NCBI GenBank assembly: GCA_965200875.1
Contig: OZ241456.1
Location: 782,588 to 846,587, forward strand
DNA: 64,000 nucleotides
DNA from: Bdellovibrionales bacterium
GTDB taxonomy: Bacteria > Bdellovibrionota > Bdellovibrionia > Bdellovibrionales > UBA1609
Reading direction: 5' to 3'
Shown piece after piece: positions 19,805 to 43,415 of the stretch. The notes under the pieces were generated by a model. The model was given only the letters and a program-made list of their open reading frames with translations, did no database searches and was not told where the DNA came from. Position 1 is the first letter of the stretch. Every line of letters starts with the position of its first letter. The position numbers were made by a program, and so were the translations under genes.

Positions 19805-19826
19805 TCATTCCCGCTTTGAGCGGGAA
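19805..19826. repeat. palindromic repeat copy (tcattcccgctttgagcgggaac) in the 23S-5S spacer
   Basis: Read directly from the sequence. Confidence 0.7.
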
Positions 19827-19842
19827 CTTGTAAAAAGGAGAT

Positions 19843-26646: not shown

Positions 26647-26725
26647 CCCGTGAAAAAGTATGTTATTTTCTTGGATTCCCGTTTTCACGGGAATGACATT
26701 TGTATAAAAAGGTTTTTTCACGGGG
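26647..26725. repeat. nested palindromes: cccgtgaaaaa ... ggattcccgttttcacgggaatgac ... tttttcacgggg
   Basis: Read directly. The inner unit is a copy of the ATTCCC/GGGAAT repeat family. Confidence 0.8.
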
Positions 26726-26904: not shown

Positions 26905-27192
26905 TTACTTTTCTTTGGCATTCTTGGTTTTTGAAGTTTTTCCATTTTTATTTGTTTTAACCTTGAGTGTTGGCATGTGATGAGGTTTGAGAAGTGGAAG
27001 AACCACTGGGGATAAACGCATTCGTTGGCTCATGTTGGTAATAAATTCTCTTAAATAAGGGTATATATTAAAATAAGCATTTTCAGTTCCAAAATACTTA
27101 ACAGCTTTTTTATTTAACTTTATATCATTAACCTCGGTGTTTTGAGTTGTTTTGATGAAAAACACTGTCGGAAACTTTATTTCTGCTTCCAA
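26905..27192 (-). CDS. SecB-like chaperone fragment
   Basis: NIYPYLREFITNMSQRMRLSPVVLPLL parallels E. coli SecB [28 protein letters not shown] (recalled from memory). Only about 95 aa, with a TTG start, so it is N-terminally short. Confidence 0.4.
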   Translation of the reverse strand: MEAEIKFPTVFFIKTTQNTEVNDIKLNKKAVKYFGTENAYFNIYPYLREFITNMSQRMRLSPVVLPLLKPHHMPTLKVKTNKNGKTSKTKNAKEK

Positions 27193-27484
27193 TTATGCGG
27201 GTGTGGAAGTCTACTTCCATATTCAAGTGAAAGCAAACGCGTGCAAAAGTTCTTAAAGTCAGATTGTGACCATCTGACAGCAATTCTGTTACATGAGCTT
27301 TTGACTGGTTTAAAGATCTGGCCAGATTTGTTCTGGTGGTGTTGCTGTTCTGCATGAGTTCAGCAATTTTTTCCTGGGCTTTCAGTATAGCCAGCTCTTC
27401 ATAGAAAACAGGGCTGTTTCTAAATGTTTCAGTGCTTTTAGGATAGGATGATTGTTTATTTTTGGTATTTTGATTTTTTTTCAT
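27128..27484 (-). CDS. XRE-family HTH protein (HigA-like antitoxin)
   Basis: TRTNLARSLNQSKAHVTELLSDGHNLTLRTFARVCFHLNMEVDFH fits the XRE HTH pattern. It overlaps the SecB-like ORF by 65 nt in another frame. Confidence 0.6.
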   Translation of the reverse strand: MKKNQNTKNKQSSYPKSTETFRNSPVFYEELAILKAQEKIAELMQNSNTTRTNLARSLNQSKAHVTELLSDGHNLTLRTFARVCFHLNMEVDFHTRIIGSRNKVSDSVFHQNNSKHRG

Positions 27485-27911: not shown

Positions 27912-29756
27912 GTGTCTGACAAATTATCATACAAATTATTGAAGATACGGCAAAATTTATCACTTTCTCAGGAGGAACTGGCAGAAGAGTTGGGCGTTTC
28001 TTTTGCTACAGTAAATCGGTGGGAAAACGGTCATTCCACTCCAAGAAGGGTTATAATGGAGACTATCCATAATCTATATAAAAGAGCACAGGAGGTGGAA
28101 ACACAGATGCTTGAATCTGAAGATCAAAAACCAAAAAAAGATGTTGTGCGGAGAAAAAGCCGAGGAGGTGGCCCGGGAACAGGTATTCTGGATAGTAGTT
28201 CTATGGAACAAATGCTTTGGAAAGTTGCCTGCGGAATTAGGGGTGAAAAAGACGCTCCAAAGTTTAAAAATTATCTTCTTCCCCTGTTATTTATCAAGCG
28301 ACTTTCTGATGTATTTGATGACGAGATTAATCGGCTTACGCAAAAGTTTGGCAGTCGCGAAAAAGCTTTAAAAATGCTGGAGCTGGATCCTTCTCTGGTT
28401 CGTTTTTACCTTTCGCCGGAGGCCAGATGGTCTGTTGTCAGTGGGCAGACTGACTTTAAATGGCCAAGAGAAAATAAACCTCGTTCTTTGGGAGAGCAAT
28501 TAACTTTAACTATGAGGGTTATTGTGAAAGACAACCCGGAGTTAAGGGGTGTTATTGATACTGAAGATTATAACGAAAGCAGAGGAGGGGAGCGGGAGAT
28601 AAGTGATTCTGCTTTAAGGAAAGTTATTGAAATTTTCTCCAATCCTAAATATCGTTTAGGGCTTAACGATGTGGAGCCTGATTTTTTAGGTCGAGCCTAC
28701 GAGTATCTTTTAAGGAAGTTTGCTGAAGGGCAGGGGCAAAGCTCAGGAGAGTTTTTTACTCCGCGTGAAGTGGGCTTTATTATGGCTAAAATTATGCAAC
28801 CCTTTGGAGGGGAAACTGCGTATGACTGCGCCTGCGGTTCTTTTGGCCTGTTGATAAAGCTTCAGCTTGTGTTAAGACAAACCAACCCTTTAAATAAAAT
28901 CCCTTTGCATTTGAGTGGTCAGGAGCTTAACGGCTCCAGTTTTGCCATTGCCTGTATGAACAGAATTATCCACGATATAGAAGGAAAAGTGAAGAGAGGC
29001 GACTCCATGCAAAACCCTAAGTTCAAAGACTCTACTGGCAGATTAAAAAAGTTCGATATTATTGTGGCCAATCCCATGTGGAATCAGCCCTTCAACAATT
29101 CTGTTTATGAAAACGATCCTTTTAATCGCTTTGAGTCCCAAGGTGGCATTACTTCTGGCAAAGCAGACTGGGCATGGCTTCAACACATACTGGCTTGTCT
29201 TAAAGAAAAAACAGGACGGGCAGGGGTGGTGCTGGATACTGGAGCAGTTACTCGAGGGAGTGGAAGTCAACACGAAGACAAGGAGAAAAAAATCAGAAAA
29301 TGGTTTGTGGATAATGACTTTATTGAAGGTGTGATACTTTTACCAGAAAATCTTTTTTACAATACCTCTTCAGCCGGCATTATTGTTTTTCTGAACAAAA
29401 ACAAACTGGAAGAAAGAAAAAATAAAATTATTTTATTAAATGCCAGTCAGGAATTTTACAAAGGAAAACCCAAGAATCATATTTCAGAGGAAGGGATTAA
29501 AAAAATAGCCACCGCCTTTATTAAAGGTGAAGAGGTGGATCGTTTTGTGAAGGTTATCACAAAAGAGTCCGTAAAGAAGAATGATTACAACCTCTCTCCT
29601 TCCCGATATATCAGTCTTTCGGAGGAAGCAGTGTATCGCCCCATCCCTCAAATTTTATCTGACTTAAACATGATCCAAAAATCAGCGGATAAAGTGGATC
29701 GGGATTTAGCTATGATTTTCCAAAAATTAAAGCCTAAACTTAAGGTGCAAAATTAG
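27912..29756 (+). CDS. hsdM: type I R-M methyltransferase subunit HsdM with N-terminal XRE-type HTH
   Basis: The HsdM_N motif LWKVACGIRGEKDAPKFKNYLLPLLFIKRLSDVF is present. Motif I is YDCACGSFGLL and motif IV is IVANPMWNQPF. The N-terminus LSQEELAEELGVSFATVNRWENG is an HTH. GGAGGA lies upstream of the GTG start. Confidence 0.88.
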   Translation: MSDKLSYKLLKIRQNLSLSQEELAEELGVSFATVNRWENGHSTPRRVIMETIHNLYKRAQEVETQMLESEDQKPKKDVVRRKSRGGGPGTGILDSSSMEQMLWKVACGIRGEKDAPKFKNYLLPLLFIKRLSDVFDDEINRLTQKFGSREKALKMLELDPSLVRFYLSPEARWSVVSGQTDFKWPRENKPRSLGEQLTLTMRVIVKDNPELRGVIDTEDYNESRGGEREISDSALRKVIEIFSNPKYRLGLNDVEPDFLGRAYEYLLRKFAEGQGQSSGEFFTPREVGFIMAKIMQPFGGETAYDCACGSFGLLIKLQLVLRQTNPLNKIPLHLSGQELNGSSFAIACMNRIIHDIEGKVKRGDSMQNPKFKDSTGRLKKFDIIVANPMWNQPFNNSVYENDPFNRFESQGGITSGKADWAWLQHILACLKEKTGRAGVVLDTGAVTRGSGSQHEDKEKKIRKWFVDNDFIEGVILLPENLFYNTSSAGIIVFLNKNKLEERKNKIILLNASQEFYKGKPKNHISEEGIKKIATAFIKGEEVDRFVKVITKESVKKNDYNLSPSRYISLSEEAVYRPIPQILSDLNMIQKSADKVDRDLAMIFQKLKPKLKVQN

Positions 29757-29844
29757 ATGTTTGAAAAAAATTTTGCTATATTCAGTCCAAAACATAAACC
29801 AGCGCGAAAAAAAATCAAACCAAGGAGAAGAATGAAAAAAGGAG

Positions 29845-31500
29845 GTGAAAGTGGGCACACCACAGTCACAAAGAAAGCAAAAGCGTTTTCGCATAACTGA
29901 TAAAAAAATCAATAACCTGCTATTAATGGGGGAAGGGTATCGCATAGAGTTTAAACAATCTCTTGATAAGTCTCTTCTTGAAGAGGTTTGTGCTTTTGCC
30001 AATTCATCAGGTGGTTATATTTTAATAGGAGTGGCAGATGATAAAACCATTAAAGGAGTGAACATAAGCCATCGGCAACTTTCTCAAATCCAGGATATGT
30101 TGATCCGTTTACAACCTAAGTTGGATATCATTGTTACAGCCAAGAAAAACCTTATTGTTATTTGTGTTCCTGAAGGTTCTGAAAAACCTTATAGTTCTCC
30201 AAGGGGATTTTTTATGAGAGTGGGGGCAAATTCTCAAAAAATGACTAGGGATGAAATTATTGGTTTTTTTAAAAAAGAGGGTCGGATCCATTTTGAAGAG
30301 TTAATCAATGAAAAAGCAACCTTTGAAAAGGATTTTGATCCACAGGCTTTTAAAAAATTTTTAAAACTATCAGGGATCAACCCAACAATTAAACAGGAAA
30401 CTCTTTTACAAAATCTTGATTGTTTGACACCAGATAACAATCTTACAAACTTAGGGGTTTTGTTTTTTGCCAAGGACCTAGATTTCATTATGAATCATGC
30501 TCTTGTGGATTGTATTTTGTTTCGAGGTGTAAATAAAGTAAAGATTTTAGATAGAAAGCAATACAAAGGAAATATTATTGAAAATATTGAAAGTGCTTTG
30601 GCTTTTGTGCAAAGACATACAAATACAGAGTATGTGATTACAGGTAAACCCCAAAGGGAGGAAATTGCTGATTACCCTGAAACTGCTTTAAGGGAAGCTA
30701 TTGTCAATGCTGTTTGCCATAGAGATTATTTTGAAAAACGTTGCCATGTAGTTGTGGAAGTATTTTCTAACAGAGTGAAAATTGACAATCCGGGTGGTTT
30801 GCCAAGTGGGCTTAATCCAAAACAATTTGGAACAAAAAGTGTGCCACGAAATCTTTTTATTGCCTCAATGCTTCATAGAGCAAATTACATAGAACAAGCC
30901 GGAACAGGAATAAACCGCATAAAAGAAGCACTTGCTAATCATAAAAAGAAAGTGATTCTTGATATTCAATATAGTAAAGCCAGTACTTTTTACACTGTTG
31001 TTTTTAGAAAGAAAGCACTTACCAGCACTACCCAGAAACCGGCATTAGGCACTACCCAGAAAAGGTTATCCGGCACTACCCAGAAACCGGCATTAGGCAC
31101 TACCCAGAAAAGGTTATCCGGCACTACCCAGAAACCGGCATTAGGCACTACCCAGAAAAGGTTATCCGGCACTACCCAGAAACCGATATCAGGCACTACC
31201 CAGAAAAGGTTATCCGGTACTACCCAGAAAAGGTTATCCGGCACTACCCAGAAACCGGCATTAGGCACTACCCAGAAAAGGTTATCCGGTACTACCCAGA
31301 AACCGATATCAGGCACTACCCAGAAAATTTTGAATTTAATAAATAAAAACCCTGTTATCACTAGGCAAGAACTGGCGGAACAAATCGGCAACATTAGTGT
31401 AGATGGTATTAAGTACCATTTGGAACAGCTAAAAAAGAAAGGTTTTTTGAAAAGAATTGGTCCTGCTAAAGGTGGTCATTGGAAGGTTCTTAAAAAATGA
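29845..31500 (+). CDS. AlbA_2 (Schlafen-like) / HATPase_c_4 / wHTH protein with internal 8-aa tandem repeats
   Basis: Motifs EGYRIEFKQS...FANSSGGYILIGV and REAIVNAVCHRDY...VKIDNPGGLP are present. The C-terminus ITRQELAEQIGNISVDGIKYHLEQLKKKGFLKR is a wHTH. Confidence 0.75.
   Translation: MKVGTPQSQRKQKRFRITDKKINNLLLMGEGYRIEFKQSLDKSLLEEVCAFANSSGGYILIGVADDKTIKGVNISHRQLSQIQDMLIRLQPKLDIIVTAKKNLIVICVPEGSEKPYSSPRGFFMRVGANSQKMTRDEIIGFFKKEGRIHFEELINEKATFEKDFDPQAFKKFLKLSGINPTIKQETLLQNLDCLTPDNNLTNLGVLFFAKDLDFIMNHALVDCILFRGVNKVKILDRKQYKGNIIENIESALAFVQRHTNTEYVITGKPQREEIADYPETALREAIVNAVCHRDYFEKRCHVVVEVFSNRVKIDNPGGLPSGLNPKQFGTKSVPRNLFIASMLHRANYIEQAGTGINRIKEALANHKKKVILDIQYSKASTFYTVVFRKKALTSTTQKPALGTTQKRLSGTTQKPALGTTQKRLSGTTQKPALGTTQKRLSGTTQKPISGTTQKRLSGTTQKRLSGTTQKPALGTTQKRLSGTTQKPISGTTQKILNLINKNPVITRQELAEQIGNISVDGIKYHLEQLKKKGFLKRIGPAKGGHWKVLKK
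31024..31326 (+). repeat. about 12.5 x 24-bp tandem repeat (actacccagaaaccggcattaggc / actacccagaaaaggttatccggc, encodes GTTQK(PAL/RLS/PIS))
   Basis: Read directly. The repeat is in frame inside the AlbA_2 gene. Confidence 0.9.
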
Positions 31501-31514
31501 AACGAGCAGTTAGA

Positions 31515-31717
31515 CACGATGTCATTCCCGCCTTGAGCGGGAATCCCGCACTTAAACGGGAAGCCAAATCGTTGTCTTCCTGTCCCTTGCGATCGAGAAT
31601 CCAGCAACAGTTTTCATTTTGTTACGATGTCATTCCCGCCTTGAGCGGGAATCCCGCACTTAAACAGGAAGATAAATTGTTATCTTCCTGTCCCTTGCGG
31701 TCGAGAAGACAATCATC
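31515..31717 (+). repeat. two tandem copies (about 100-109 bp) of a compound palindromic element
   Basis: cgatgtcattcccgccttgagcgggaatcccgcacttaaac(g/a)ggaag...ttgtcttcctgtcccttgcg is repeated. The tracked ORF 31497-31745 is its translation artefact. Confidence 0.85.
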
Positions 31718-31887
31718 TAAAAATAGAAAGGAGATGTTAAAATGAGTGTAAACAAATGTGTTATATGGGGTACTTTACTAAAAACAGAACTGAAAAATTA
31801 AAAACTATCAAAGTATTATCTATTGATAAAAAGGATCAAGGAAATAACTTGTATAAAAATTCAAACAAATAAATAAAGGAGGCAAAC

Positions 31888-32331
31888 ATGAGTGAGCAAA
31901 ATAAAAAAGAAAGTGAAATCAATACGGATTTCTTAGATCGCTGTATTCGAGCTTTGGAAATTTCATACAATAAACTGCAAAAACTGTCCCCGGAAAATAT
32001 TGAATATGACATTTATCGCTCTGCTTGTGTTAAAGAGTTTGAAATTATTTTGGAGCAATGCGGGAAGTTGTTAAAAAAACGCCTGAGAGATTTTTTTCAT
32101 TCCAATAAAGCTGTTGATGATTTGGTATTTAAGGATCTTTTTCGTTACTCAGCAAAACATGGTTTGATGGATATTAAGAGCAGTGAACGCTGGTGTAAAT
32201 ATAGAGATAACAGAAATAACACAGCTCATGATTATGGAGTGGGTTTTGCCGAAGAAACTTTAAAAGCTCTATCCCCATTTATAACTGACGCGAAAGCCAT
32301 TGTTGATATTTTGAAAAAGAAAGAGACATAA
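31888..32331 (+). CDS. HEPN-domain protein (nucleotidyltransferase substrate-binding, HI0074-like)
   Basis: 147 aa, helical, with an R-x4-H motif (RNNTAHDYG). It lies directly upstream of an MNT-domain ORF. Confidence 0.7.
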   Translation: MSEQNKKESEINTDFLDRCIRALEISYNKLQKLSPENIEYDIYRSACVKEFEIILEQCGKLLKKRLRDFFHSNKAVDDLVFKDLFRYSAKHGLMDIKSSERWCKYRDNRNNTAHDYGVGFAEETLKALSPFITDAKAIVDILKKKET

Positions 32332-32425
32332 ATATAGGGTCGTGAAAAACTTGGTTAAACATTGTTTATTTTTCTAAAAAATAAACCGCTTTAATAAGTA
32401 AACATAAAAAATCAGTTTTGCTGAT

Positions 32426-34306
32426 ATGATAAAAAATAAGACTAAAAAAGCAGGAGAAAGTTCAGTGTCTGAAAAAAAACTTCATTTGCCTGTTAAATAT
32501 AGAAAACAAATAAAGACTCTGTTTCGAAAGCATTTACCTGATGTGGATGTATGGGTTTACGGAAGTCGGGTTAACGGACAAAGCCACCCAGCTAGTGACT
32601 TAGATCTAGTGTTGCGTGCGCCGGGGTTAAAAAAGATTAATTCATTAAAACTATATGACTTAAAGGAAGCTTTAACAGAGTCCAATATTCCTTTTTTAGT
32701 GGAGGCAAGGGATTGGGCTTTACTTCCAAAAAGCTTTCATCAGGAAATTAAGCGTAGTTATATTATTTTAATTAAAGGCGAAAAAAAATATTACACTGAT
32801 GAGGTAAAAACAAAAAAAATATTGAGTAAAAAACCTTCTGTCAATTCCTCTGGGTCTGTAAATTTCTCTGAGTTTGTCACCACTTCCTCTGAGCCTATTA
32901 CTCCATCCGTGGGCAGGACTCCAAAACTTAAACAGGAAGCCAAATCATTGTCTTCCCGCTCCACCTCTTCAGGCGTTCCCGCCAAGCACGATGTTCATCC
33001 CCCTAGGCACGATGTCATTCCCGCGCAAGCGGGAATCCAGAAAAAGCTTTCATCTGAAAAAAAATGGAGGCTTTGTTCTATAAGAGAGGAGTATTCATCG
33101 ACACAACAAGTAGATAAATCATTGTCTTCCCGCTCCACCTCTTCAGGCGTTCCCGCCAAGCACGATGTTCATCCCCCTAGGCACGATGTCATTCCCGCGC
33201 AAGCGGGAATCCAGAAAAAGCTTTCATTTGAAAATGAGCAGAAGCTTGGTTCTGCACAATCTGAGTATACAGGAAACACAAAACAAACAGAGATCGGAGA
33301 AATACCAGAAGAATGGGATATTACTTCTATTAAAGAAGCTTATTTTTTTTCTAAAAAACCAAAAGAATTAAACTTAAAAAGCTTTTCACATATATCTTTT
33401 GTTCCCATGCAATTAATCCCGGATAATCAGCTATTTTTAAGTAATTATATAGAAAAGAAATGGAAACTACTGTCAAGTGGTGTATATTTTGAGGAAGGAG
33501 ATTTATTGTTATCAAAAATTACCCCTTCATTTGAAAATGGAAAACAATGTATTATCAGAAATATAAAAAATGGATTTGGAATTGCAACAACAGAGGTAAT
33601 TCCTATTAAAAGTAAAAAAGGGGTAAGTGATATAAGGTTTCTTTTTTATTATTTATTATTAAATAATATTCGCTCTACAATAGCAGGAAAAATGGAAGGA
33701 ACAACAGGAAAAAAACGAATACCTGTATATGTTATTAAAAACTTCAAAATCCCTCTTCCACCACTTGAGGAGCAAAAAAAGATTGTGGAGATTTTGTCTA
33801 AAATTCAAAAAGCGGTTGAGATACAAAATAAAATTATTAAAGTCACAAAAGAATTAAAACAAACAACTATGAAGTATCTTTTTACATATGGAACAAGAGG
33901 AAGTAAAAGCACTTTGGAGATACCAGAGTATGCTGACCCTTCCTGTCCCACCTCTTCAATCGTTTCATCTAAGCACGATGTTTATTCTTCTGAACTTGTC
34001 ACTCCTTCTGAGCCTGTCAATTCCTCTGAGTCTGTCATTCCCGCCGTGAGCATGACTCTAAAACTTAAGCATGAAGACAAATCGTTGTCTTCCCGTCCCT
34101 TGCAGTCGGGAATCAAGAAAAAACCTTCATCTGAAAGTGAGAAGGCATTTGGTTCTGCACAAGCGGATATATTGCAAAAGATAGATGATAAAATATCAGT
34201 ACATGAAAAGAAAAAGTCAACACTTGAAGAATTACTTAAAACCATGTTAAACCAGCTAATGACCGGAAAAATCCGTACTCATAGTGTGGATATACTGGAA
34301 AAATAA
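32426..34306 (+). CDS. hsdS: chimeric ORF: minimal nucleotidyltransferase (MNT) domain + repeat-derived linker + single-TRD HsdS
   Basis: Residues 1-120 carry the MNT motif VWVYGSRVNGQSHPASDLDLVL. Residues about 285-490 are an HsdS TRD plus conserved helix (EIPEEWDITSI..., LPPLEEQKKIVEILSKI). The C-terminus LEELLKTMLNQLMTGKIR is the second conserved helix. Three repeat blocks are in frame. Confidence 0.7.
   Translation: MIKNKTKKAGESSVSEKKLHLPVKYRKQIKTLFRKHLPDVDVWVYGSRVNGQSHPASDLDLVLRAPGLKKINSLKLYDLKEALTESNIPFLVEARDWALLPKSFHQEIKRSYIILIKGEKKYYTDEVKTKKILSKKPSVNSSGSVNFSEFVTTSSEPITPSVGRTPKLKQEAKSLSSRSTSSGVPAKHDVHPPRHDVIPAQAGIQKKLSSEKKWRLCSIREEYSSTQQVDKSLSSRSTSSGVPAKHDVHPPRHDVIPAQAGIQKKLSFENEQKLGSAQSEYTGNTKQTEIGEIPEEWDITSIKEAYFFSKKPKELNLKSFSHISFVPMQLIPDNQLFLSNYIEKKWKLLSSGVYFEEGDLLLSKITPSFENGKQCIIRNIKNGFGIATTEVIPIKSKKGVSDIRFLFYYLLLNNIRSTIAGKMEGTTGKKRIPVYVIKNFKIPLPPLEEQKKIVEILSKIQKAVEIQNKIIKVTKELKQTTMKYLFTYGTRGSKSTLEIPEYADPSCPTSSIVSSKHDVYSSELVTPSEPVNSSESVIPAVSMTLKLKHEDKSLSSRPLQSGIKKKPSSESEKAFGSAQADILQKIDDKISVHEKKKSTLEELLKTMLNQLMTGKIRTHSVDILEK
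32917..33227 (+). repeat. two copies of the compound palindromic element inside the MNT-HsdS ORF (112 bp identical: 32942-33053 and 33116-33227)
   Basis: Read directly. They translate as KSLSSRSTSSGVPAKHDVHPPRHDVIPAQAGIQKKLS. Confidence 0.85.
33941..34129 (+). repeat. third, diverged copy of the compound element plus a 15-bp minisatellite, at the position where HsdS TRD2 is expected
   Basis: Contains gtcattcccgccgtgagc...aaacttaagcatgaagacaaatcgttgtcttcccgtcccttgcagtcgggaatc. Confidence 0.75.
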
Positions 34307-34327
34307 ATAAAGAATAAAAAGGACACT

Positions 34328-35392
34328 ATGTTTAATATCGATCAGCAAATCTCATTAAGAACGGAATTAACTCCTCGTATATTGCCGAGAACCCAATATT
34401 TGGGAAGCAAACAGAAATTGGTAAAATGGATATACCAATGCTCTCCTAAAAATATAAAAACAGTTTTTGACGCATTTAGTGGCACATCTGCTGTAGGATA
34501 TCATTTTAAAACCCAAGGAAAAAAAGTTATAGCCAATGATTTTCTAAAGTTTAATTACCATATTGGAAAAGCCCTTATTGAAAATAAAAATATCATCTTG
34601 ACGAATAAAGATATTAAGTTGTTGTTGCAAAATAATAAAACCTCTGACTTCTTTATTGAAGAAAACTTTACTGGAGTATTTTTTGAAAAAGAACAGGCTC
34701 AATTTTTAGATAATTTTAGAGCCAATATTGATCTCTTAAATAATCAATATAAAAAATCTTTGGCTTTTACAATTATTAATAGAGCTTTAACAAAGAAGGT
34801 TTTGTTGGGCCATTTTGCACATTTAAAAGCTCTGGACTACAGCAAAAATCTTAAGCGTATTAAAAGAAACCCGGCTATTACTCGACCCATAAAAGATCTA
34901 TTTCTGGATCTGGTAAATGATTATAATCATGCGGTGTTTGATAATAAGCAACAAAACAAAATGTACTGTCAGGATATAATTGGTTTTATCAGGAATATAA
35001 AAGGTGTGGACTTGGTATATTTTGATCCTCCTTATTATGGCTGTCATCCAGATTATCAGGCTTTTTATCATTTCCTAGAAACTTATGTTGAGTACTGGAA
35101 AGAAAAACAATTTATTAATAAAACGAAACAATATTTCCCTAAGAAGAAAAGTGGCTTTACACAAAAAAATGAAATAGTGGAGTCATTTAAAAAACTATTT
35201 GAGAACAGTCAGGATATTCCATATTGGCTGATTTCTTACAATAGTAATAGCTACCCTGATAAAGAGACTATGACGAATATAATACAGCAATATAGAAAAA
35301 CTAAAGTTTTTGAAAATGAATATCAAAATCATTACGGAGGCAAAGGCTCTCGCAAAGGTACACGAGAATATTTGTTTTTATGTTATGAGTAA
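34328..35392 (+). CDS. D12-class N6-adenine DNA methyltransferase
   Basis: Motifs YLGSKQKLVKWI, FDAFSGTSAVG and YFDPPYYG are present, with C-terminal WLISYNSNS. It is a paralogue of the gene at 20171-21415. Confidence 0.7.
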   Translation: MFNIDQQISLRTELTPRILPRTQYLGSKQKLVKWIYQCSPKNIKTVFDAFSGTSAVGYHFKTQGKKVIANDFLKFNYHIGKALIENKNIILTNKDIKLLLQNNKTSDFFIEENFTGVFFEKEQAQFLDNFRANIDLLNNQYKKSLAFTIINRALTKKVLLGHFAHLKALDYSKNLKRIKRNPAITRPIKDLFLDLVNDYNHAVFDNKQQNKMYCQDIIGFIRNIKGVDLVYFDPPYYGCHPDYQAFYHFLETYVEYWKEKQFINKTKQYFPKKKSGFTQKNEIVESFKKLFENSQDIPYWLISYNSNSYPDKETMTNIIQQYRKTKVFENEYQNHYGGKGSRKGTREYLFLCYE

Positions 35393-35454
35393 AAATAAAG
35401 AGCAAGAACATTTGGATATACTTGTGAAATAAAAATATAAAACAAAAGGAGAGT

Positions 35455-37446
35455 ATGATGAAAATTAAAAAATTAGAGATTGAAAATTTTAAAGCTATAA
35501 AGCATCTGAAGTTGGATATTTTAAGTGACACTGTTTTAATTGCTGGCCCAAATGGCTGTGGCAAATCATGTATCTTTCATGCAATTAGATTATTAAAATC
35601 TGTTATAGGTGGATATCAGGATAATGAGTGGCATTTGTGGTTTAATGAATTTCAAATAAGTCCACAAAACCTTGGTCAGGATATTATTAAGTTATTTCAA
35701 ACAGATGACAGAAAATTACAAATTAAAGCCGATTTTGAATTAAGTGAAGAAGAAAAAACATTTTTAAAAAATGAAGGTAAAGATATGCTTGAATACCAGC
35801 TATGGAAAAGAGCATTACCTAATATTTTCAATACTCTAGATCAACAATACTATAAAGCTCGACCGTTAGGTGCACAATATGGTGATATAGCTAAAAAAAT
35901 AACCGAATCATCTAAGCAATTATTTGAAAATTTGAATAAAGAATTGTCTCAACCAAAAATTAATGTTTGTTTTGAAGCTGATGTAAACGGTGTTCTTACA
36001 ATATCTCCTACAAAATCATTACAGCTTGCATTTAGTTTTTTTGAAAAAGACTTAGGTATTATTGATTATCATGGCCCTGATAGGAATTACCATAAAGAAA
36101 CATTAAATAATATTAATTTAAATATTAAGACAAGTCACCAATCTATAAAGCAACACTCTTTATACAATTATACAAATAAGTATTCCAATGTGAAACAGGA
36201 AATGGTTGGAAGTTATATTAGGAGTTTGCTGACAAAAGAGGCTGGAGGAGTAGTGAACAGTTCAGATTCCAATTTAATTGATACCTTAAAAGAGTTGTTT
36301 AATGAGTTTTTTCCTGGAAAAGAGTTTTTAGATCCACAACCAAGTAAAACTGGTGGAATTGATTTTCCTGTAAAACTAAAAAATGGCACAACTCATGATA
36401 TCAATGATCTTAGTTCAGGTGAAAAAGAGGTGCTTTATGGTTATTTGAGATTAAGAAGTTCTACACCAAAAAATTCTATCATTATGATTGATGAACCAGA
36501 GCTTCATTTGAATCCAAAATTAATTTCTGGCCTACCACATTTTTACAAAAAACATTTAAGTGAAAAAATGGGTAATCAAATTTTACTAATAACTCATTCT
36601 GATGCTTTTCTTCGTGAAGCTATGAGAGAAAAGGATTATCAAGTTTATCATATAAAACCACCTTTTAGTATTTCATCTTATAAAGATAATCAAATTAAAG
36701 TAGTCAATGTAAATAATGATTTGGAAGAAGCTATTATTGATTTAGTTGGTGATTTAGCCACTTATTCACCAGATAAAAAAAATGTGTTGTTGGAAGGAGA
36801 AAACTCAGAGTTTGATTCAAAAATGATTACAAAGTTATTTCCTGAATTTTCAGAAAAAGTAAACTTATTATCTGCTGGCTCAAAGCATAAAGTAATCAGA
36901 CTACATGAATTATTGGAAAAAGCAAATCAAGAAGGGCAACTACATACAAAATTTTTTTCAATTATAGATAAGGATCTACATGATGATAACACTATAAGAT
37001 CAATAAAGGCATTTCAGTGGGATGTTTATCATATAGAAAATTATTTATTAAATGAAGACTACTTACTAAAATCTGTAAATGGATTGCTATTGCAAAAACA
37101 ATGGAGTATTGAAGAAATAAACGATTTATTATTAAAATGTGCAAAAGAATCTATAGGTGTCCTTATTAAAGATATTCTAACTAATGAGGTATATAAAAAA
37201 ACTCCTAATCTTAAAAAAATAGGATGTGATCCAGAAAATTTAAATATCTCTATAGAGATTTATAACTCTCTTCAAAGAAAAATAGACAATCTTTCTAAAA
37301 TTCCAACAAAGGATTATTTGCAAAAATTACAAGATATTGAAAAGCAAAAACGAAAAGAATTTAATCAGGCTTTTTGCAATTACACATGGAAGGAAAAAGT
37401 GAAAGGGAGAGATGTATTAAAAAGATTAGTGGCAACAATTAATTAG
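35455..37446 (+). CDS. fused ABC/SMC-type ATPase + DUF4435-like Toprim domain (OLD/PARIS-like)
   Basis: Walker A is LIAGPNGCGKS, the signature is LSSGEKE and Walker B is IIMIDEPELHLNP. The C-terminal half carries NVLLEGENSEFD, FFSIIDKDLH and VYHIENYLL. Confidence 0.65.
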   Translation: MMKIKKLEIENFKAIKHLKLDILSDTVLIAGPNGCGKSCIFHAIRLLKSVIGGYQDNEWHLWFNEFQISPQNLGQDIIKLFQTDDRKLQIKADFELSEEEKTFLKNEGKDMLEYQLWKRALPNIFNTLDQQYYKARPLGAQYGDIAKKITESSKQLFENLNKELSQPKINVCFEADVNGVLTISPTKSLQLAFSFFEKDLGIIDYHGPDRNYHKETLNNINLNIKTSHQSIKQHSLYNYTNKYSNVKQEMVGSYIRSLLTKEAGGVVNSSDSNLIDTLKELFNEFFPGKEFLDPQPSKTGGIDFPVKLKNGTTHDINDLSSGEKEVLYGYLRLRSSTPKNSIIMIDEPELHLNPKLISGLPHFYKKHLSEKMGNQILLITHSDAFLREAMREKDYQVYHIKPPFSISSYKDNQIKVVNVNNDLEEAIIDLVGDLATYSPDKKNVLLEGENSEFDSKMITKLFPEFSEKVNLLSAGSKHKVIRLHELLEKANQEGQLHTKFFSIIDKDLHDDNTIRSIKAFQWDVYHIENYLLNEDYLLKSVNGLLLQKQWSIEEINDLLLKCAKESIGVLIKDILTNEVYKKTPNLKKIGCDPENLNISIEIYNSLQRKIDNLSKIPTKDYLQKLQDIEKQKRKEFNQAFCNYTWKEKVKGRDVLKRLVATIN

Positions 37447-37619
37447 GAAATTTCAACTGAAAATTTTTCATATATGACTTTAAGAAATCAGATTATTGCC
37501 ACAATGGCTATAGACAGTTACAAGCCTGAAGGGATGAAAAAGATTATTCAACAAATAAAAAATGCTTAATGTTGAGGGTTTTTGTATTAAAATTTTATCA
37601 GGATATGTGCGGGCTTATG

Positions 37620-37790
37620 AGTGGTTGAAAGCCTTTTTTGCTTTCTGTTTAGGTGCTGGATTCCCGCCTGCGCTGGAATGACGTGTATGGAGCGAGCATA
37701 GGTGCAAGTTGTAAGGTGATGATAGGATATACATAGGCTTGTGAATGGCTGAAAGCCCTTTGGGCTTTCAGTTTTGGGAACATACATGAA
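37620..37790. repeat. compound intergenic repeat: hairpin gaaagcc/ggctttc + ggattcccgcctgcgctggaatgac core + second hairpin ctgaaagccc/gggctttcag
   Basis: Read directly. Related copies lie at 38170-38231 and 40045-40110. Confidence 0.8.
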
Positions 37791-37859: not shown

Positions 37860-38156
37860 GTGAAGAAAGAGAAACAAGCATTTGTTTATATAATGGCAAA
37901 TAAAAGAAATGGAACAATTTATACAGGAGTGACAAATGATTTATCAAATCGTGTGTGGCAACATAAACAGAATGTAATAGAAGGTTTTACAAAAAAGTAC
38001 GGTGTTCATCATTTGGTTTATTTTGAACAACATGGAAGTATGTACTCAGCTATTGAACGAGAGAAACAAATAAAAAAATGGTGCAGGCAATGGAAATTAA
38101 AACTCATAGAAAAAGAAAATCCAAGTTGGAGTGACTTATATGATTCTATCATTTAA
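37860..38156 (+). CDS. GIY-YIG nuclease-family small protein
   Basis: 98 aa. Motifs FVYIMANKRNGTIYTGVTNDLSNRVWQHK and EREKQIKKW are present. The start is GTG. Confidence 0.85.
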   Translation: MKKEKQAFVYIMANKRNGTIYTGVTNDLSNRVWQHKQNVIEGFTKKYGVHHLVYFEQHGSMYSAIEREKQIKKWCRQWKLKLIEKENPSWSDLYDSII

Positions 38157-38169
38157 TGTTTATATGTAT

Positions 38170-38231
38170 CGTATTGAAAGCCTTTTTGGCTTTTAGTTTA
38201 GATACTGGATTCCCGCCTGCGCGGGAATGAC
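38170..38231. repeat. compound intergenic repeat copy (hairpin + ggattcccgcctgcgcgggaatgac)
   Basis: Read directly from the sequence. Confidence 0.8.
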
Positions 38232-38273
38232 GTATATGAAATAATGATAACTTAAAAAAACAGGAGGAGTAAA

Positions 38274-39461
38274 ATGCAGATAACGCAGATAAAGTTAAAA
38301 AATTTTCGGGCTTTTCAAAATGTGGAGATGCGGGATATTCCGCACTTCGTGGTTCTTGTTGGTGCTAATGGCACAGGCAAATCCACTTTGTTTTCCGTTT
38401 TTGGTTTTCTTCGTGACGCAATGACCTCTAATGTGACCACCGCTCTTTCAAAATTGGGAGGAAGTCGGGGTTTTAAAGAGGTGGTCAGCAGAAACTCAAC
38501 AGGTCCTATTGAGATTGAAATCAAGTTTCGGGAAAAACCCAAAAGTCAGTTGGTTACTTATGCCTTGTGTATTGCTGAAAAAAATGGTCGCGCGATAGTG
38601 GAACGGGAGATCTTAAAATATCGCCGAGGTACCAGGGGAGCACCTTGGAAGTTTTTAGATTTTTCATGCGGGAAAGGCCAAGCTGTTACCAATGAGATGG
38701 ATGATGTAAAAGATGAAAAAGACCTTCAGAGAGAAGAACAAAACCTTAAATCTCCTGATTTGCTGGCCATAAAGGGACTAGCCCAGTTTGAGCGATTTCC
38801 TGCTGTAGTGGCTCTTGGCAATTTGATTGAGCGTTGGCATATCTCTGACTTCCATATCAGCAAAGCGCGCCCGGAACAAGAATCGGGGTATGCGGAACAC
38901 TTGTCACGCTCAGGAGAAAACTTGTCCTTGGTGGTGGAATATCTTTATCAAAATCATAGAAATGTTTTTGACACTATTATCAAACAATTGAGTAAAAGAG
39001 TGCCTGGCATTACCAAAGTTGATTCCAAACAAACAGAAGAAGGACGTATTTTATTGAAATTTCAGGATGGGGATTTTGAAGATCCGTTTCTAGCTCGTTA
39101 TGTTTCTGACGGTACAATTAAAATGCTGGCCTATCTGATTTTACTTTATGACCCTGCTCCTCATCCTCTGCTGTGCGTGGAAGAACCGGAAAATCAACTT
39201 TATCACAGTTTGCTGGAAGAATTAGCAGAGGAATTTCGCTCTTATGCCAACAAAGGCGGGCAGGTATTTGTCTCCACTCACTCCCCGGATTTTTTAAATT
39301 CTGTCAAACTGGAAGAAGTATTTTGGCTGGAAAAGCAATCCGGCTATACAGTTGTCAAACGAGCTATGGCTAATGAGCAAGTTTCCGCTTATATGAAACA
39401 AGGGGATAAAATGGGAAATCTTTGGACACAGGGTTTTTTTACAGGAGCAGATCCTAAATGA
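38274..39461 (+). CDS. AAA_15/AAA_21-type ABC ATPase
   Basis: Motifs IKLKNFRAF, VLVGANGTGKST, YVSDGTIKMLAYL, LLCVEEPENQLYH and VSTHSPDF are present. Confidence 0.8.
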   Translation: MQITQIKLKNFRAFQNVEMRDIPHFVVLVGANGTGKSTLFSVFGFLRDAMTSNVTTALSKLGGSRGFKEVVSRNSTGPIEIEIKFREKPKSQLVTYALCIAEKNGRAIVEREILKYRRGTRGAPWKFLDFSCGKGQAVTNEMDDVKDEKDLQREEQNLKSPDLLAIKGLAQFERFPAVVALGNLIERWHISDFHISKARPEQESGYAEHLSRSGENLSLVVEYLYQNHRNVFDTIIKQLSKRVPGITKVDSKQTEEGRILLKFQDGDFEDPFLARYVSDGTIKMLAYLILLYDPAPHPLLCVEEPENQLYHSLLEELAEEFRSYANKGGQVFVSTHSPDFLNSVKLEEVFWLEKQSGYTVVKRAMANEQVSAYMKQGDKMGNLWTQGFFTGADPK

Positions 39462-40027
39462 AAAATCTTGTTTTCTTTCTGGAAGGATATTCTGAAAAAG
39501 TAATGCTGGAAGGTCTGTTATCGCGTTTGTTGCCTGAAAATGTTTCTCCTGTTTATTGTGTGTTTAAAGGGAAAAAAGACTTGGAAAAGAATCTTTTTAA
39601 AAAAATACAGGGATGGCAAAAACCTGAAAGTGCTTTCATAGTTTTGCTCGACCAAGATCAGGAAAACTGTAAATCTCTTAAGAAAAGAATACTTGAAATA
39701 TGCAAACAGTGTGAAAATTCAGTAACCCCTTTAAAGTATATTATTCGCGTAGCTTGCCGTGAACTGGAAAGCTGGTATTTTGGTGATTTAGAAGCTGTTG
39801 GAAAAGCATTTAATAAGCCAAAATTGCCAGATCGATATAAGAATAAAAAACAATATAAAAATCCAGACAAAATTCAAAATCCTGCGAAAGAACTTGAGAA
39901 GATTACCAATAAAGAATATCAAAAAATTTCTGGTTCTAGAGCTATTGGTTCTTTACTTTCCTGGGAAAATAATAAATCACGTAGCTTTAAAGTGTTTATC
40001 GAAGGTATCAAGGATCTGGTTCAATGA
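39458..40027 (+). CDS. DUF4276-like (Toprim-like) protein
   Basis: 189 aa. The N-terminus LVFFLEGYSEKVML has a Toprim-like Glu. VLLDQDQE is DxD-like and RELESWYFGD is also present. A 4-nt overlap couples it to the upstream ATPase. Confidence 0.55.
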   Translation: MKNLVFFLEGYSEKVMLEGLLSRLLPENVSPVYCVFKGKKDLEKNLFKKIQGWQKPESAFIVLLDQDQENCKSLKKRILEICKQCENSVTPLKYIIRVACRELESWYFGDLEAVGKAFNKPKLPDRYKNKKQYKNPDKIQNPAKELEKITNKEYQKISGSRAIGSLLSWENNKSRSFKVFIEGIKDLVQ

Positions 40028-40044
40028 AAAATGATTCTCATTTT

Positions 40045-40110
40045 TCAGTTTAGGTGCTGGATTCCCGCCTGTGCGGGAATGACTTGTATGGAGGGAGAGC
40101 GAGCATGGAT
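40045..40110. repeat. compound intergenic repeat copy (ggattcccgcctgtgcgggaatgac + gtatggagggagagcgagcatgg tail)
   Basis: Read directly from the sequence. Confidence 0.8.
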
Positions 40111-40604
40111 GTGAGCTTTTTCAGGCTTTAATGAGTATTTATGTGCCAAATTGGAAGGTACTGGATAAAGAGCTTAACTTTATGCAAAAAGAGCAACAAC
40201 AAGCAGAGCTTTGTTAATGTATTGACCTGCTCTCAGTGTTGTTCTTTCCCACAAAAGATGTTTGTTGTTCTTTTCACTAAAATTTTAGTTCAGATATTTT
40301 TTAATCCATGAGAGAGTAGGGATTTATATCCTGCTTGATAATTTTTTAGGAATTTTATCTTCAAAACTACATGAAAATAGCTTGGTAGTGCAGAAAAAAC
40401 ATTAAAATATTTTTTAACTCACTGTGTTGTGTCAAAGTTGGGAAAATCCAAAATGTAGTATATCCTTTATTTATATTACTACCTTTATTTATATTACTAA
40501 GTGTCAATATTGACGCGTTGTCTGATTGATCCTTTGGAAAAAAGAATCTAAGATTAGGTAAATTTTTAATGGTTTAAGTTATGAAGAAACTAATGGTGTA
40601 AATT

Positions 40605-40823
40605 ATGAAAAAGCTAACAAATCAAGATTTTTACAGTGGGCAGGTAAATGCTAATTTAGAGCTTAGATTGATAAATCACTTAAGGGCAAAGCATAATATG
40701 CGTCCCTTATCAAAGCTCCCAGTTGCTGAACAACCGCAACCCAGGTGGCAACCTGGAAAAAGATACACACTGCTTGAACAAATAAAGCGACACAAGCAAA
40801 AAAGTATTTTAGGAAGAATGTAA
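40605..40823 (+). CDS. small hypothetical protein
   Basis: 72-aa ORF with no recognisable domain. Coding status is uncertain. Confidence 0.3.
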   Translation: MKKLTNQDFYSGQVNANLELRLINHLRAKHNMRPLSKLPVAEQPQPRWQPGKRYTLLEQIKRHKQKSILGRM

Positions 40824-40989
40824 TAATAAAAATTTAAGACATTCTCTTGTGCAGGGGGATGTCCAAATATTCGTTAGGGTTATAGAAGATATTTTATGGC
40901 CTTTTACCTTTTTCTCTGAAAGATATTACAGAGTATTCTCATTTTTTAGTCCTTGACTATACTCCCAATATATCCGATAAATTAGGAAT

Positions 40990-42601: not shown

Positions 42602-42711
42602 AAAAAAAAATATTTTTTATTAGATATTTCTCATAAAATATTTTACTATCGAGCAATCAATAACTTTCTATCAATCAATCAACAATTCAATAACAACGAA
42701 AGGTGGATTTT

Positions 42712-43287: not shown

Positions 43288-43415
43288 GCCAGTCGGTCTT
43301 GAATAAACGATAAAGCATTATAATCACTCGATTTTTTTTATCGTTGCGTTGCATAGTGACTATTCTGGTGCTTTTTGGGAGAATAAAAAGAGTTTTCCCA
43401 AAAGGAAGGAATTTT

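What the first reader, a model, noticed from the sequence alone, without database searches (positions are those of the whole stretch)
27912..37446. Type I-like hsdM/hsdS unit with no hsdR, continued by a D12 methylase and an ABC-ATPase/Toprim(DUF4435) fusion: possible hybrid restriction/defence operon
Seven same-strand ORFs run with short gaps. They are an HTH-fused HsdM, an AlbA_2/HATPase_c_4 protein, a HEPN protein and an MNT-HsdS chimera. A DPPY D12 methylase follows 21 nt later (34328-35392). A 663-aa protein follows 62 nt after that, with an SMC/ABC ATPase head (GPNGCGKS, LSSGEKE, IMIDEPELHLNP) and a DUF4435-like Toprim tail (LLEGENSE, IIDKD, YHIENYLL). I see no SF2-helicase/HsdR-like ORF anywhere in the 64 kb. 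One reading is that M/S is a methylation-only remnant next to an independent PARIS-like gene. The other is that the OLD/PARIS-like ATPase-nuclease with a second methylase stands in for HsdR. I know of no described system with that composition. PARIS is reported to sense anti-restriction proteins that target type I R-M, so even simple co-location would be functionally meaningful.
Basis: partly seen in the sequence, partly recalled or inferred. Interest (0 to 1): 0.8.

Follow-up and report, generated by a model that had tools for sequence, protein, structure and literature searches.

The report
Decayed type I restriction operon carrying nested defence genes
This is a type I restriction-modification operon that carries several other anti-phage genes inside it, a known arrangement, and this copy has lost its restriction subunit and has a stop codon in its PARIS-like gene, so it is not a new hybrid enzyme.

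Summary
The ORFs and domain calls are real. The last gene is a full-length match to the fused PARIS protein AriAB (PADLOC E=4.8e-174). No HsdR-like sequence exists in the 64 kb.

The idea that AriAB plus the D12 methylase replaces HsdR is not supported:
- A syntenic relative (L090) has the same backbone, HTH-HsdM, HEPN, MNT-HsdS and HEC-01 at 59-78% identity. It continues into HsdR and YgjP, which the window lacks.
- Where the window has D12+AriAB, L090 has a SIR2 gene, so this is a variable cargo slot.
- AriAB relatives sit in the same operons as HsdR or Res (L001, L059, L083, L081).
- D12 is adjacent to AriAB in none of 86 other loci. Its own relatives pair with a 248-aa gene.

The locus looks partly decayed. 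HsdR is absent, HsdS has one target-recognition domain, and AriAB has an in-frame TAG 41 codons before its native stop.

The co-location is still meaningful. In the window's AriAB cluster, 7 of 8 members with known context lie directly beside type I, II or III R-M genes, against 8 of 80 within 10 kb in the wider family. Nesting of defence genes in R-M operons is already described (PrrC, DarTG2, Payne 2024).

Verdict: a new member of a known kind, of moderate-low interest.

The parts
27128..27484 (-). Divergently transcribed small HTH_26 (Cro/C1-type) regulator upstream of hsdM
   Evidence: Pfam HTH_26 E=3.5e-5. It is 57% identical to the equivalent divergent gene in syntenic locus L090.
27912..29756 (+). 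HTH_3-fused HsdM, the type I methyltransferase subunit. Its motifs are non-canonical: motif IV reads NPMWNQPF and motif I reads ACGSFG.
   Evidence: Pfam N6_Mtase E=7.7e-85, HsdM_N and HTH_3. It is 77% identical over its full length, including the HTH, to L090 HsdM.
29845..31500 (+). Nested cargo gene encoding AlbA_2 (Schlafen-like) + HATPase_c_4 + winged HTH. Its linker holds a 24-nt tandem repeat (30962-31375).
   Evidence: Pfam; repeat family D1. The homologue in L082 is 58-77% identical.
31497..31745 (+). 'orf82', made of two 108-nt copies of the palindromic repeat unit. Probably not a gene.
   Evidence: No Pfam or PADLOC match. Repeat families D2/D3 and hairpins at 31521 and 31629. The analogous repeat-filled ORF x122 occurs in L090.
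31888..32331 (+). HEPN (NTase_sub_bind / HepT-like) putative RNase toxin with an RNNTAH (Rx4H) motif
   Evidence: Pfam PF08780 E=4.4e-15; motif. It is 66-67% identical to the HEPN genes of L082 and L090, always just upstream of MNT-HsdS.
32426..34306 (+). MNT (minimal nucleotidyltransferase antitoxin domain) fused to HsdS. The linker is built of palindromic repeats. There is one TRD with the central and distal conserved regions; the second TRD is missing.
   Evidence: Pfam NTP_transf_2 + Methylase_S; alignment A3; repeats D4/D5/D8. The MNT+Methylase_S architecture is seen in at least 14 protein clusters.
34328..35392 (+). Solitary D12-class (Dam-like, DPPY) N6-adenine methyltransferase. Probably a later insertion into the hsdS-ariAB junction.
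   Evidence: Pfam and PADLOC MTase_II. Junction duplication 34287-34320 / 35413-35446 (D15, 67). Relatives in L087 and L088 are followed by a 248-aa gene that is absent here.
35455..37569 (+). Fused PARIS gene ariAB (ABC ATPase + DUF4435 TOPRIM), interrupted by an in-frame TAG at 37444-37446
   Evidence: PADLOC AriAB E=4.8e-174; Pfam. The in-frame continuation is 66% identical to L082 AriAB through 37566. The AF2 model shows the lost tail forms two confident helices.
37860..38156 (+). 98-aa GIY-YIG nuclease gene flanked by 65-nt direct repeats (37625-37689 and 38174-38238) that carry the palindrome
   Evidence: Pfam GIY-YIG E=7.2e-16; repeat family D6.
38274..39461 (+). HEC-01 ABC ATPase (AAA_21/AAA_15), part of the conserved backbone
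   Evidence: PADLOC HEC-01 E=2.6e-200; Pfam. It is 78% identical to the L090 gene that lies between MNT-HsdS and HsdR.
39458..40027 (+). HEC-01 partner, DUF4276 (TOPRIM-like)
   Evidence: PADLOC HEC-01 E=3.6e-69; Pfam DUF4276. It is 59% identical to the L090 gene.
40028..40989 (.). Position where L090 has a small HTH gene, hsdR and ygjP. No remnant is detectable here. A hairpin repeat lies at 40059-40083.
   Evidence: tblastn of L090 HsdR, x145 and YgjP against the window gave no hit at E<0.5. Repeat.
26673..26697 (-). Upstream copy of the palindromic element GTCATTCCCGC-N4/5-GCGGGAATCC. Other copies are at 31521, 31629, 33014, 33188, 37658, 38207, 40059 and 49078.
   Evidence: 7 exact pattern matches against 0.00 expected.

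Best explanation
The block is one type I restriction-modification operon that serves as a scaffold for nested, independently acting defence modules. This copy is partly decayed.

Shown: the conserved backbone is a divergent HTH regulator, HTH-HsdM, cargo slot 1, HEPN, MNT-HsdS, cargo slot 2, the HEC-01 ATPase/TOPRIM pair, then HsdR and YgjP in the intact relative L090. In the window, slot 1 holds an AlbA_2/HATPase_c_4 gene. Slot 2 holds a solitary D12 methylase, a fused PARIS gene (AriAB) and a small GIY-YIG gene. L090 has a SIR2 gene in slot 2 instead. Copies of a palindromic repeat mark the module junctions.

Inferred from the E. coli PARIS and PrrC precedents: in an intact version the R-M enzyme is the first line of defence. 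AriAB, HEC-01 and the HEPN/MNT pair are back-up abortive modules. They would fire when a phage deploys an anti-restriction protein, and they are co-transcribed and co-transferred with the R-M genes.

Shown for this genome: hsdR and ygjP are missing, HsdS has lost its second target-recognition domain, and ariAB has a nonsense codon that removes two conserved C-terminal helices.

Inferred: what probably still works is adenine methylation by D12, possibly by M/S, together with the HEPN/MNT pair and HEC-01. AriAB and D12 are not a functional replacement for HsdR.
For: -
- Synteny with L090: HsdM 77%, HEPN 67%, MNT-HsdS 61-67%, HEC-01 78% and 59%, followed by HsdR (HSDR_N, SWI2_SNF2, T1R_D3) and YgjP. 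SIR2_2 sits where the window has D12+AriAB.
- Synteny with L082: the gene order is HsdM, AlbA, HEPN and further cargo, then MNT-HsdS, AriAB and Fic. HsdM is 76% identical and AriAB 66%. AriAB follows HsdS after 30 nt with no D12.
- AriAB coexists with restriction subunits. L083 is HsdR-HsdM-SocA-x-AriAB-HsdS. L001 is AriAB-HEPN-HsdM-HsdS-HsdR-YgjP. L059 is HsdM-AriAB-HsdS-x-HsdR with overlapping stops and starts. L081 is type III Mod-Res-AriAB. L084 and L085 are MTase, a 374-aa gene, then AriAB.
- The window's AriAB falls in a 16-member cluster. Of the 8 members with known context, 7 abut R-M or methylase genes.
- In 80 wider-family loci, only 8 have R-M genes within 10 kb. No neighbour family is conserved.
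- D12 is adjacent to AriAB in 0 of 86 other loci. Its relatives pair with 248-aa and 125-aa genes. A junction duplication flanks it.
- Decay: no HsdR; one TRD; the TAG at 37444-37446, in a window where TAG ends 9 of 37 long ORFs; loss of helices 668-681 and 687-698 in the model.
- The concept of nested defence genes and R-M guards is established in the papers read.
Against: - Only one relative (L090) shows the intact backbone ending in HsdR. L082 stops at a contig end.
- I could not read the rest of the 1.83-Mb genome, so an hsdR elsewhere is not excluded.
- The fused AriAB family has not been tested experimentally as far as I found. Its link to solved E. coli AriA is remote (E=2.5e-8 over about 130 residues), and AriB is not detected by sequence. 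The Ocr trigger and tRNA target are therefore extrapolations.
- HEC-01 gave no protection in the one published test (paper read).
- The TAG could be a sequencing error.
- A single-TRD HsdS can in principle work as a dimer, so 'decay' of M/S is not proven.
- The cluster-specific R-M linkage rests on eight contexts from low-GC metagenomic contigs. These may be related organisms, so the contexts are not fully independent.
Confidence: 0.68

Rival explanations
1. Ronin-like decoy or guard. The HsdM/HsdS pair without HsdR is kept as bait for phage anti-restriction proteins, not as a restriction enzyme. Binding of a DNA mimic such as Ocr or ArdA to the M2S1 complex would disturb the MNT antitoxin domain that is fused to HsdS. 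This would release the HEPN RNase, and perhaps AriAB, to abort infection.
For: - HsdR is absent.
- MNT is covalently fused to HsdS in at least 14 protein clusters. It is preceded by HEPN in all three loci examined.
- Ronin provides the precedent: HsdMS without HsdR plus a small effector, whose activity does not depend on methyltransferase catalysis. PrrC in EcoprrI is a second precedent (papers read).
- The non-canonical HsdM motifs would not matter for a decoy.
Against: - The closest intact relative with the same MNT-HsdS fusion and the same HsdM motifs does encode HsdR. The fusion therefore evolved within a real R-M system, and loss of HsdR here looks secondary.
- Other lesions occur in the same locus (AriAB stop, missing TRD2), which fits relaxed selection.
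- There is no experimental data on MNT-HsdS.
Confidence: 0.12
2. Functional type I R-M with hsdR encoded elsewhere. The M and S genes here partner with a distant hsdR, and the locus is a working restriction system with nested accessories.
For: HsdM and MNT-HsdS are intact ORFs. Split type I loci are known from general knowledge. The rest of the 1.83-Mb genome could not be searched.
Against: In the syntenic relative, hsdR lies in the same operon. The window shows a clean absence there with no remnant. HsdS lacks one TRD.
Confidence: 0.15
3. AriAB, with the D12 methylase marking self DNA, has taken over the nuclease role of HsdR in a new composite R-M-like system.
For: The genes are on the same strand with gaps of 21 and 62 nt. 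D12 and AriAB have similarly low GC of 30% and 28%. No HsdR is present.
Against: - D12 is adjacent to AriAB in 0 of 86 other loci.
- AriAB coexists with HsdR or Res in relatives.
- AriAB has low GC in every locus regardless of its neighbours.
- D12 relatives have their own 248-aa partner.
- AriAB is truncated.
- Characterised PARIS cleaves tRNA, not DNA (papers read).
Confidence: 0.03
4. The premature stop in ariAB is an assembly or base-calling error, and the gene is intact in the organism.
For: It is a single-codon lesion. The downstream 40 codons are perfectly in frame and still conserved, so the change is either very recent or artefactual.
Against: Other long genes in the window are intact, including the 1066-aa CarB, the 1220-aa SspC and the 23S rRNA. 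TAG is a normal stop here. The database copy of the protein is identical.
Confidence: 0.15

Closest known systems
PARIS (AriA/AriB), single-gene fused form (AriAB); Rousset et al. 2022, PMC9122126
   Same: ABC ATPase head plus DUF4435 TOPRIM tail in one polypeptide. It is a full-length match to the PADLOC AriAB model, and Pfam DUF4435 scores above its cut-off. The fused form was already noted in the original paper.
   Different: It is only remotely related to the solved E. coli AriA. The trigger and the tRNA target are untested for this family. This copy is truncated by a stop codon. This cluster is attached to R-M operons rather than to P4-type satellite hotspots, and only 3 viral contigs carry a relative.
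PrrC anticodon nuclease nested in the EcoprrI type I R-M locus
   Same: An ABC-ATPase-based abortive module nested in a type I hsd operon. It acts as a guard against anti-restriction proteins (papers read).
   Different: The PrrC effector is a HEPN anticodon nuclease fused to the ATPase. Here the effector is a TOPRIM domain, and HEPN is a separate gene paired with MNT-HsdS. No physical interaction with HsdMS is shown here.
Ronin (HsdS + HsdM without HsdR, plus RonA); Silas et al., bioRxiv 10.1101/2023.04.06.535777
   Same: hsdM/hsdS with no hsdR, tightly linked to a toxic effector. It is the conceptual precedent for an HsdR-less M/S unit acting as a sensor.
   Different: No RonA-like 61-aa membrane protein was identified here. 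The relative L090 retains HsdR, so loss is probably secondary.
Defence systems nested in type I R-M, BREX, DISARM or Hma (guilt-by-embedding; HEC-01); Payne et al., bioRxiv 10.1101/2024.01.29.577857. Also DarTG2 in a type I system (PMC12255303).
   Same: Same-strand nesting of defence cassettes between hsd genes. HEC-01 (ABC ATPase + TOPRIM-like partner) is itself one of their nested candidates. A small repressor lies upstream, as with RptR.
   Different: This copy lacks the terminal hsdR. The slots are bounded by a palindromic repeat element, and the upstream regulator belongs to a different family (HTH_26).
HepT/MntA (HEPN-MNT) toxin-antitoxin pairs
   Same: A NTase_sub_bind HEPN protein with an Rx4H motif lies next to an MNT with the GSx(n)DxD motif.
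   Different: The MNT is fused to the N-terminus of the type I specificity subunit. I did not find this architecture discussed in the papers searched, although a PADLOC S-subunit model covers it.

Membership tests
PARIS, fused AriAB | ABC ATPase (AAA_15/AAA_21) with Walker A, signature and Walker B motifs | tested here: met
   Pfam AAA_15 E=8.9e-22 and AAA_21 E=7.9e-18. GPNGCGKS, LSSGE and DEPE are present.
PARIS, fused AriAB | DUF4435 TOPRIM nuclease domain in the same polypeptide; full-length match to the family model | tested here: met
   Pfam DUF4435 scores 30.0 bits against a cut-off of 27. PADLOC AriAB PDLC02981 gives E=4.8e-174 over 2-660 of 663 aa. Foldseek top hits are ABC-ATPase/TOPRIM nucleases: GajA, the retron Eco8 OLD nuclease and OLD.
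PARIS, fused AriAB | Intact full-length protein | tested here: not met
   An in-frame TAG at 37444-37446 removes the last 40 conserved residues, which form two confident helices in the model.
PARIS, fused AriAB | Activation by an anti-restriction protein (Ocr or similar), with tRNA cleavage and growth arrest | not testable with these tools
   This needs expression assays. It is known only for the two-gene E. coli system (papers read).
Type I restriction-modification system | HsdM with N6_Mtase and HsdM_N domains | tested here: met
   Pfam E=7.7e-85 and 1.4e-21. Motif IV is the variant NPMWNQPF, shared with the HsdR-containing relative L090.
Type I restriction-modification system | HsdS with two target-recognition domains and conserved regions | tested here: not met
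   One TRD with the central and distal conserved regions is present. TRD2 is replaced by repeat-derived sequence.
Type I restriction-modification system | HsdR (HSDR_N + SF2 helicase) encoded with M and S | tested here: not met
   tblastn with four HsdR proteins and one Res found nothing convincing in 64 kb; the only matches below E=1 were two short ones at E=0.36 and 0.56. HsdR is present in the syntenic L090. The rest of the genome was not searchable.
Ronin-type decoy | hsdM + hsdS without hsdR | tested here: met
   within the 64-kb window only.
Ronin-type decoy | Tightly linked RonA-like small membrane effector | not tested
   No RonA sequence was available for comparison. None of the small ORFs in the block had a family match.
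Ronin-type decoy | Cell death triggered by anti-restriction proteins and dependent on HsdMS | not testable with these tools
   This needs genetics.
HEPN-MNT toxin-antitoxin | HEPN with an Rx4-6H motif next to an MNT with the GS...DxD motif | tested here: met
   RNNTAH at residue 109. GSRVNGQSHPASDLD at residue 46 of MNT-HsdS. Pfam hits.
Type II R-M (D12 methylase with cognate endonuclease) | An adjacent restriction endonuclease gene | tested here: not met
   Relatives in L087 and L088 carry a conserved 248-aa downstream gene. The window has no homologue of it. The D12 gene is therefore solitary here.
HEC-01 (PADLOC candidate) | ABC ATPase plus TOPRIM-like partner as an overlapping gene pair | tested here: met
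   PADLOC E=2.6e-200 and 3.6e-69. The genes overlap by 4 nt. Pfam AAA_21 and DUF4276.

The most novel reading that the evidence does not exclude
The MNT-HsdS fusion with its upstream HEPN gene is a built-in guard of the type I methyltransferase complex. Anti-restriction DNA mimics that bind M2S1 would inactivate the tethered MNT antitoxin and release the HEPN RNase. In this HsdR-less copy, the M/S unit would survive purely as a Ronin-like decoy sensor. The palindromic repeats that flank each TRD and each cargo gene would then be the recombination substrate that reshuffles specificities and cargo.
Probability: 0.1. Interest if true: 0.7.

Novelty: new member of a known kind. Interest (0 to 1): 0.33.

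Why it matters
The hybrid enzyme idea does not hold up, so this is not a new class of restriction system. The comparative result is still useful. One cluster of fused PARIS genes is attached to the 3' end or interior of type I, II and III R-M operons in 7 of 8 contexts. This is genomic support for PARIS as a back-up that fires when phages disable restriction. The recurrent HEPN plus MNT-HsdS arrangement offers a concrete, testable case of a toxin-antitoxin pair physically tethered to an R-M complex. The L090/window/L082 trio shows how cargo slots in one R-M scaffold are exchanged and how such loci decay.

Tried and rejected
- Exact-sequence look-ups of the window's AriAB, its database twin P0001, the 92%-identical D12 relative P0124 and the MNT-HsdS relative P0256 all failed. 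I could not read the source genome, a 1,831,459-bp contig, or search it for hsdR.
- The metagenome scan with the single D12 protein returned only two loci.
- Promoter and terminator scans were no better than shuffled sequence (63 against 53 and 9 against 10), so operon boundaries remain unproven.
- Rfam found no family for the palindromic repeats.
- The plasmid collection holds only two AriAB relatives and the viral collection three. A phage-satellite context like E. coli PARIS was considered and rejected for this family.
- An irregular CRISPR array was considered for the hairpin repeats. It was rejected because the spacing is 108, 174 and 549 nt and copies lie inside ORFs.
- Recoding of TAG was considered and rejected, because TAG ends 9 of 37 long ORFs.
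- Profile search of the PDB did not detect AriB.

Full report
**Observation**

All seven same-strand ORFs exist at the stated coordinates. Pfam and PADLOC confirm the domain calls:
- HTH_3 + HsdM_N + N6_Mtase at 27912-29756.
- AlbA_2 + HATPase_c_4 + winged HTH at 29845-31500.
- A NTase_sub_bind/HEPN protein at 31888-32331.
- NTP_transf_2 (MNT) + Methylase_S at 32426-34306.
- A D12-class methylase with DPPY at 34328-35392.
- An AAA_15/AAA_21 + DUF4435 protein at 35455-37446.

The last protein matches the PADLOC model for the fused PARIS protein AriAB over its whole length (E=4.8e-174). It is a recognised system, not an unclassified ATPase-Toprim fusion. By sequence it is only remotely related to solved E. 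coli AriA (8UX9, E=2.5e-8). A Foldseek search of an AlphaFold model of its 66%-identical relative returns ABC-ATPase/TOPRIM nucleases: GajA, the retron Eco8 OLD nuclease and OLD.

**Surroundings**

The block lies in a defence island just downstream of a 23S-5S rRNA pair. The neighbours are:
- A second D12 methylase at 20171-21415.
- A subtilase pair.
- The HEC-01 pair, an ABC ATPase at 38274-39461 and a DUF4276 protein at 39458-40027.
- PDC-S01 at 40990-42162.
- SspB and SspC homologues.

No HsdR or Res is present. Four divergent HsdR proteins and a type III Res gave no convincing tblastn hit in the window; the only matches below E=1 were two short ones at E=0.36 and 0.56. The three largest other ORFs are not helicases.

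**Corrections to the observation**

1. The 663-aa ORF is truncated. An in-frame TAG at 37444-37446 is followed by 40 codons that still align with the conserved C-terminus of the homologues, up to TAA at 37567-37569. Homologues are 690-708 aa. TAG is an ordinary stop in this window, ending 9 of 37 long ORFs. In the model, the lost tail forms two confident helices.
2. The 82-aa ORF is made of two copies of a 108-nt palindromic repeat unit and is probably not a gene.
3. HsdS has a single target-recognition domain. Where relatives have the second one, the window has about 75 residues of repeat-derived sequence.

**Does AriAB, with D12, stand in for HsdR?**

I fetched 80 loci encoding relatives from species-representative genomes.
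- No neighbour family is conserved.
- D12 is adjacent in none of them.
- R-M genes lie within 10 kb in only 8 of 80.

The window's protein belongs to a tighter cluster of 16 sequences with at least 51% identity. The picture there is different. Eight members have a known context:

| Locus | Gene order |
|---|---|
| window | HsdM ... MNT-HsdS, D12, AriAB |
| L082 | HsdM ... MNT-HsdS, AriAB, Fic |
| L083 | HsdR, HsdM, SocA, x, AriAB, HsdS |
| L081 | type III Mod, Res, AriAB |
| L084, L085 | N6_N4 methylase, 374-aa gene, AriAB |
| L001 | AriAB, HEPN, HsdM, HsdS, HsdR, YgjP |
| L086 | AriAB without an adjacent R-M gene |

A more distant relative, L059, has HsdM-AriAB-HsdS-x-HsdR with overlapping stops and starts. 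This AriAB lineage is therefore habitually attached to R-M operons of three types. It usually sits alongside the restriction subunit, so it is an accessory and not a substitute.

**The syntenic locus L090**

L090 is decisive. It shares these genes with the window:
- The divergent HTH regulator (57% identity).
- HTH-HsdM (77%, including the HTH).
- HEPN (67%).
- MNT-HsdS (61-67%).
- The HEC-01 pair (78% and 59%).

It then continues into a small HTH gene, a 976-aa HsdR and YgjP. None of these three leaves any trace in the window. Between MNT-HsdS and HEC-01, L090 has a 1293-aa SIR2 protein where the window has D12, AriAB and a GIY-YIG gene.

The backbone is thus a type I operon with two variable cargo slots. 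The window's copy has lost its 3' end.

**The D12 gene**

D12 looks like a late, solitary insertion.
- In L082, AriAB follows HsdS after 30 nt.
- In the window, the last codons of hsdS plus the spacer and ribosome-binding site (34287-34320) recur just upstream of ariAB (35413-35446). This similarity is suggestive rather than conclusive, because the sequence is short and AT-rich.
- D12 relatives in L087 (77% identity) and L088 (50%) are followed by conserved 248-aa and 125-aa genes. These are probably the cognate endonuclease and a partner, and the window has no homologue of them.

The low GC of AriAB (28%) is a property of the gene in every locus. It is not a sign of co-acquisition with D12.

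**Mechanism**

Shown: the modular anatomy, the synteny and the three lesions (no HsdR, one TRD, the stop in ariAB).

Inferred from the E. coli PARIS, PrrC and Ronin literature: in intact versions the R-M enzyme is the first barrier. The nested ABC-ATPase/TOPRIM modules (AriAB, HEC-01) and the HEPN/MNT pair are back-ups that abort infection when a phage blocks restriction. Same-strand nesting gives co-regulation and co-transfer.

In this genome the restriction arm is gone and AriAB is probably disabled. What remains is methylation by D12 and perhaps M/S, the HEPN/MNT pair and HEC-01.

The MNT-HsdS fusion recurs in at least 14 protein clusters. It is preceded by HEPN in all three loci examined. 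This makes a tethered toxin-antitoxin guard of the methyltransferase complex an attractive but untested idea. With HsdR missing, a Ronin-like decoy role cannot be excluded. However, L090 shows that the fusion evolved inside a complete R-M system.

**Comparison and novelty**

Nesting of defence genes inside type I R-M operons is documented. Examples are PrrC in EcoprrI, DarTG2 with RptR, the rlo genes, and the guilt-by-embedding survey that defined HEC-01 and explicitly discusses nested PARIS. The fused AriAB form was noted when PARIS was described.

The block is therefore a new, partly decayed member of a known kind. The cluster-specific attachment of AriAB to R-M modules and the HEPN/MNT-HsdS arrangement are the parts worth following up.

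**Limits**

- The rest of the source genome could not be searched for hsdR.
- Only eight contexts support the cluster-level linkage.
- Operon structure is not demonstrated.
- No function was tested.

Noticed in passing
window 26673-26697, 31521-31546, 31629-31654, 33014-33038, 33188-33212, 37658-37682, 38207-38231, 40059-40083, 49078-49102; also L082 and L090: A palindromic element, GTCATTCCCGC-N4/5-GCGGGAATCC, marks the junctions between gene modules (7 exact pattern matches against 0.00 expected by chance). It is 93-97% identical in L082 and L090, although the coding DNA there is only 70-78% identical. It is translated in frame as VIPAQAGIQ or SFPRKRES in the linkers of MNT-HsdS proteins. 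The exact 21-base pattern also occurs in at least 120 IMG/VR contig stretches with GC from 32% to 72%, so it is a cosmopolitan element. Rfam has no match.
   Followed up: partly
window 37860-38156 (+), with repeats at 37625-37689 and 38174-38238: A 98-aa GIY-YIG nuclease gene is flanked on both sides by the 65-nt version of the palindromic repeat. Among 120 viral stretches chosen only for the hairpin, 3 carry a 52-55% identical GIY-YIG gene, each within about 65 nt of a hairpin copy. None of the roughly 90 loci not chosen for the hairpin has one. This may be an autonomous element, with hairpin-only copies as its MITE-like derivatives.
   Followed up: partly
window 30962-31375: About 17 tandem copies of a 24-nt unit (8 aa) lie inside the AlbA_2/HATPase_c_4 gene, between the ATPase-like domain and the winged HTH. 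DNA similarity to the L082 homologue is interrupted between 31016 and 31453, which covers most of this array.
   Followed up: no
window 27912-29756; L090 6154-7989; L082 660-2273: This HsdM family has non-canonical catalytic motifs. Motif IV reads ANPMWNQPF instead of NPPF/Y, and motif I reads ACGSFG instead of CGSGG. L090 shares these motifs and has an HsdR.
   Followed up: no
window 16642-19959 and 13667-16189: A 23S-5S rRNA pair has no 16S gene upstream. The flanking gene is instead an 840-aa minus-strand ORF with no Pfam or PADLOC match, in a very AT-rich and strongly AT-skewed stretch (GC 0.30, AT skew -0.42).
   Followed up: no
window 42703-50380: SspB (DUF4007, 43344-44300) and SspC (45456-49118) homologues are interleaved with two pentapeptide-repeat proteins (42703-43287 and 44557-45198). 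No SspA- or SspD-like gene was recognised among the neighbouring ORFs scanned; the 349-aa ORF at 49331-50380 has no family match.
   Followed up: no
window 20171-21415; L086 15266-16540: A second D12-class methylase lies directly after the 5S rRNA gene. Its 74%-identical relative lies 3 kb from the AriAB gene of L086.
   Followed up: no
L082 (whole locus): This 1.79x-coverage contig has frameshift-like splits of HTH-HsdM, AlbA and MNT-HsdS relative to the window and L090. Its gene calls understate the fusions.
   Followed up: partly
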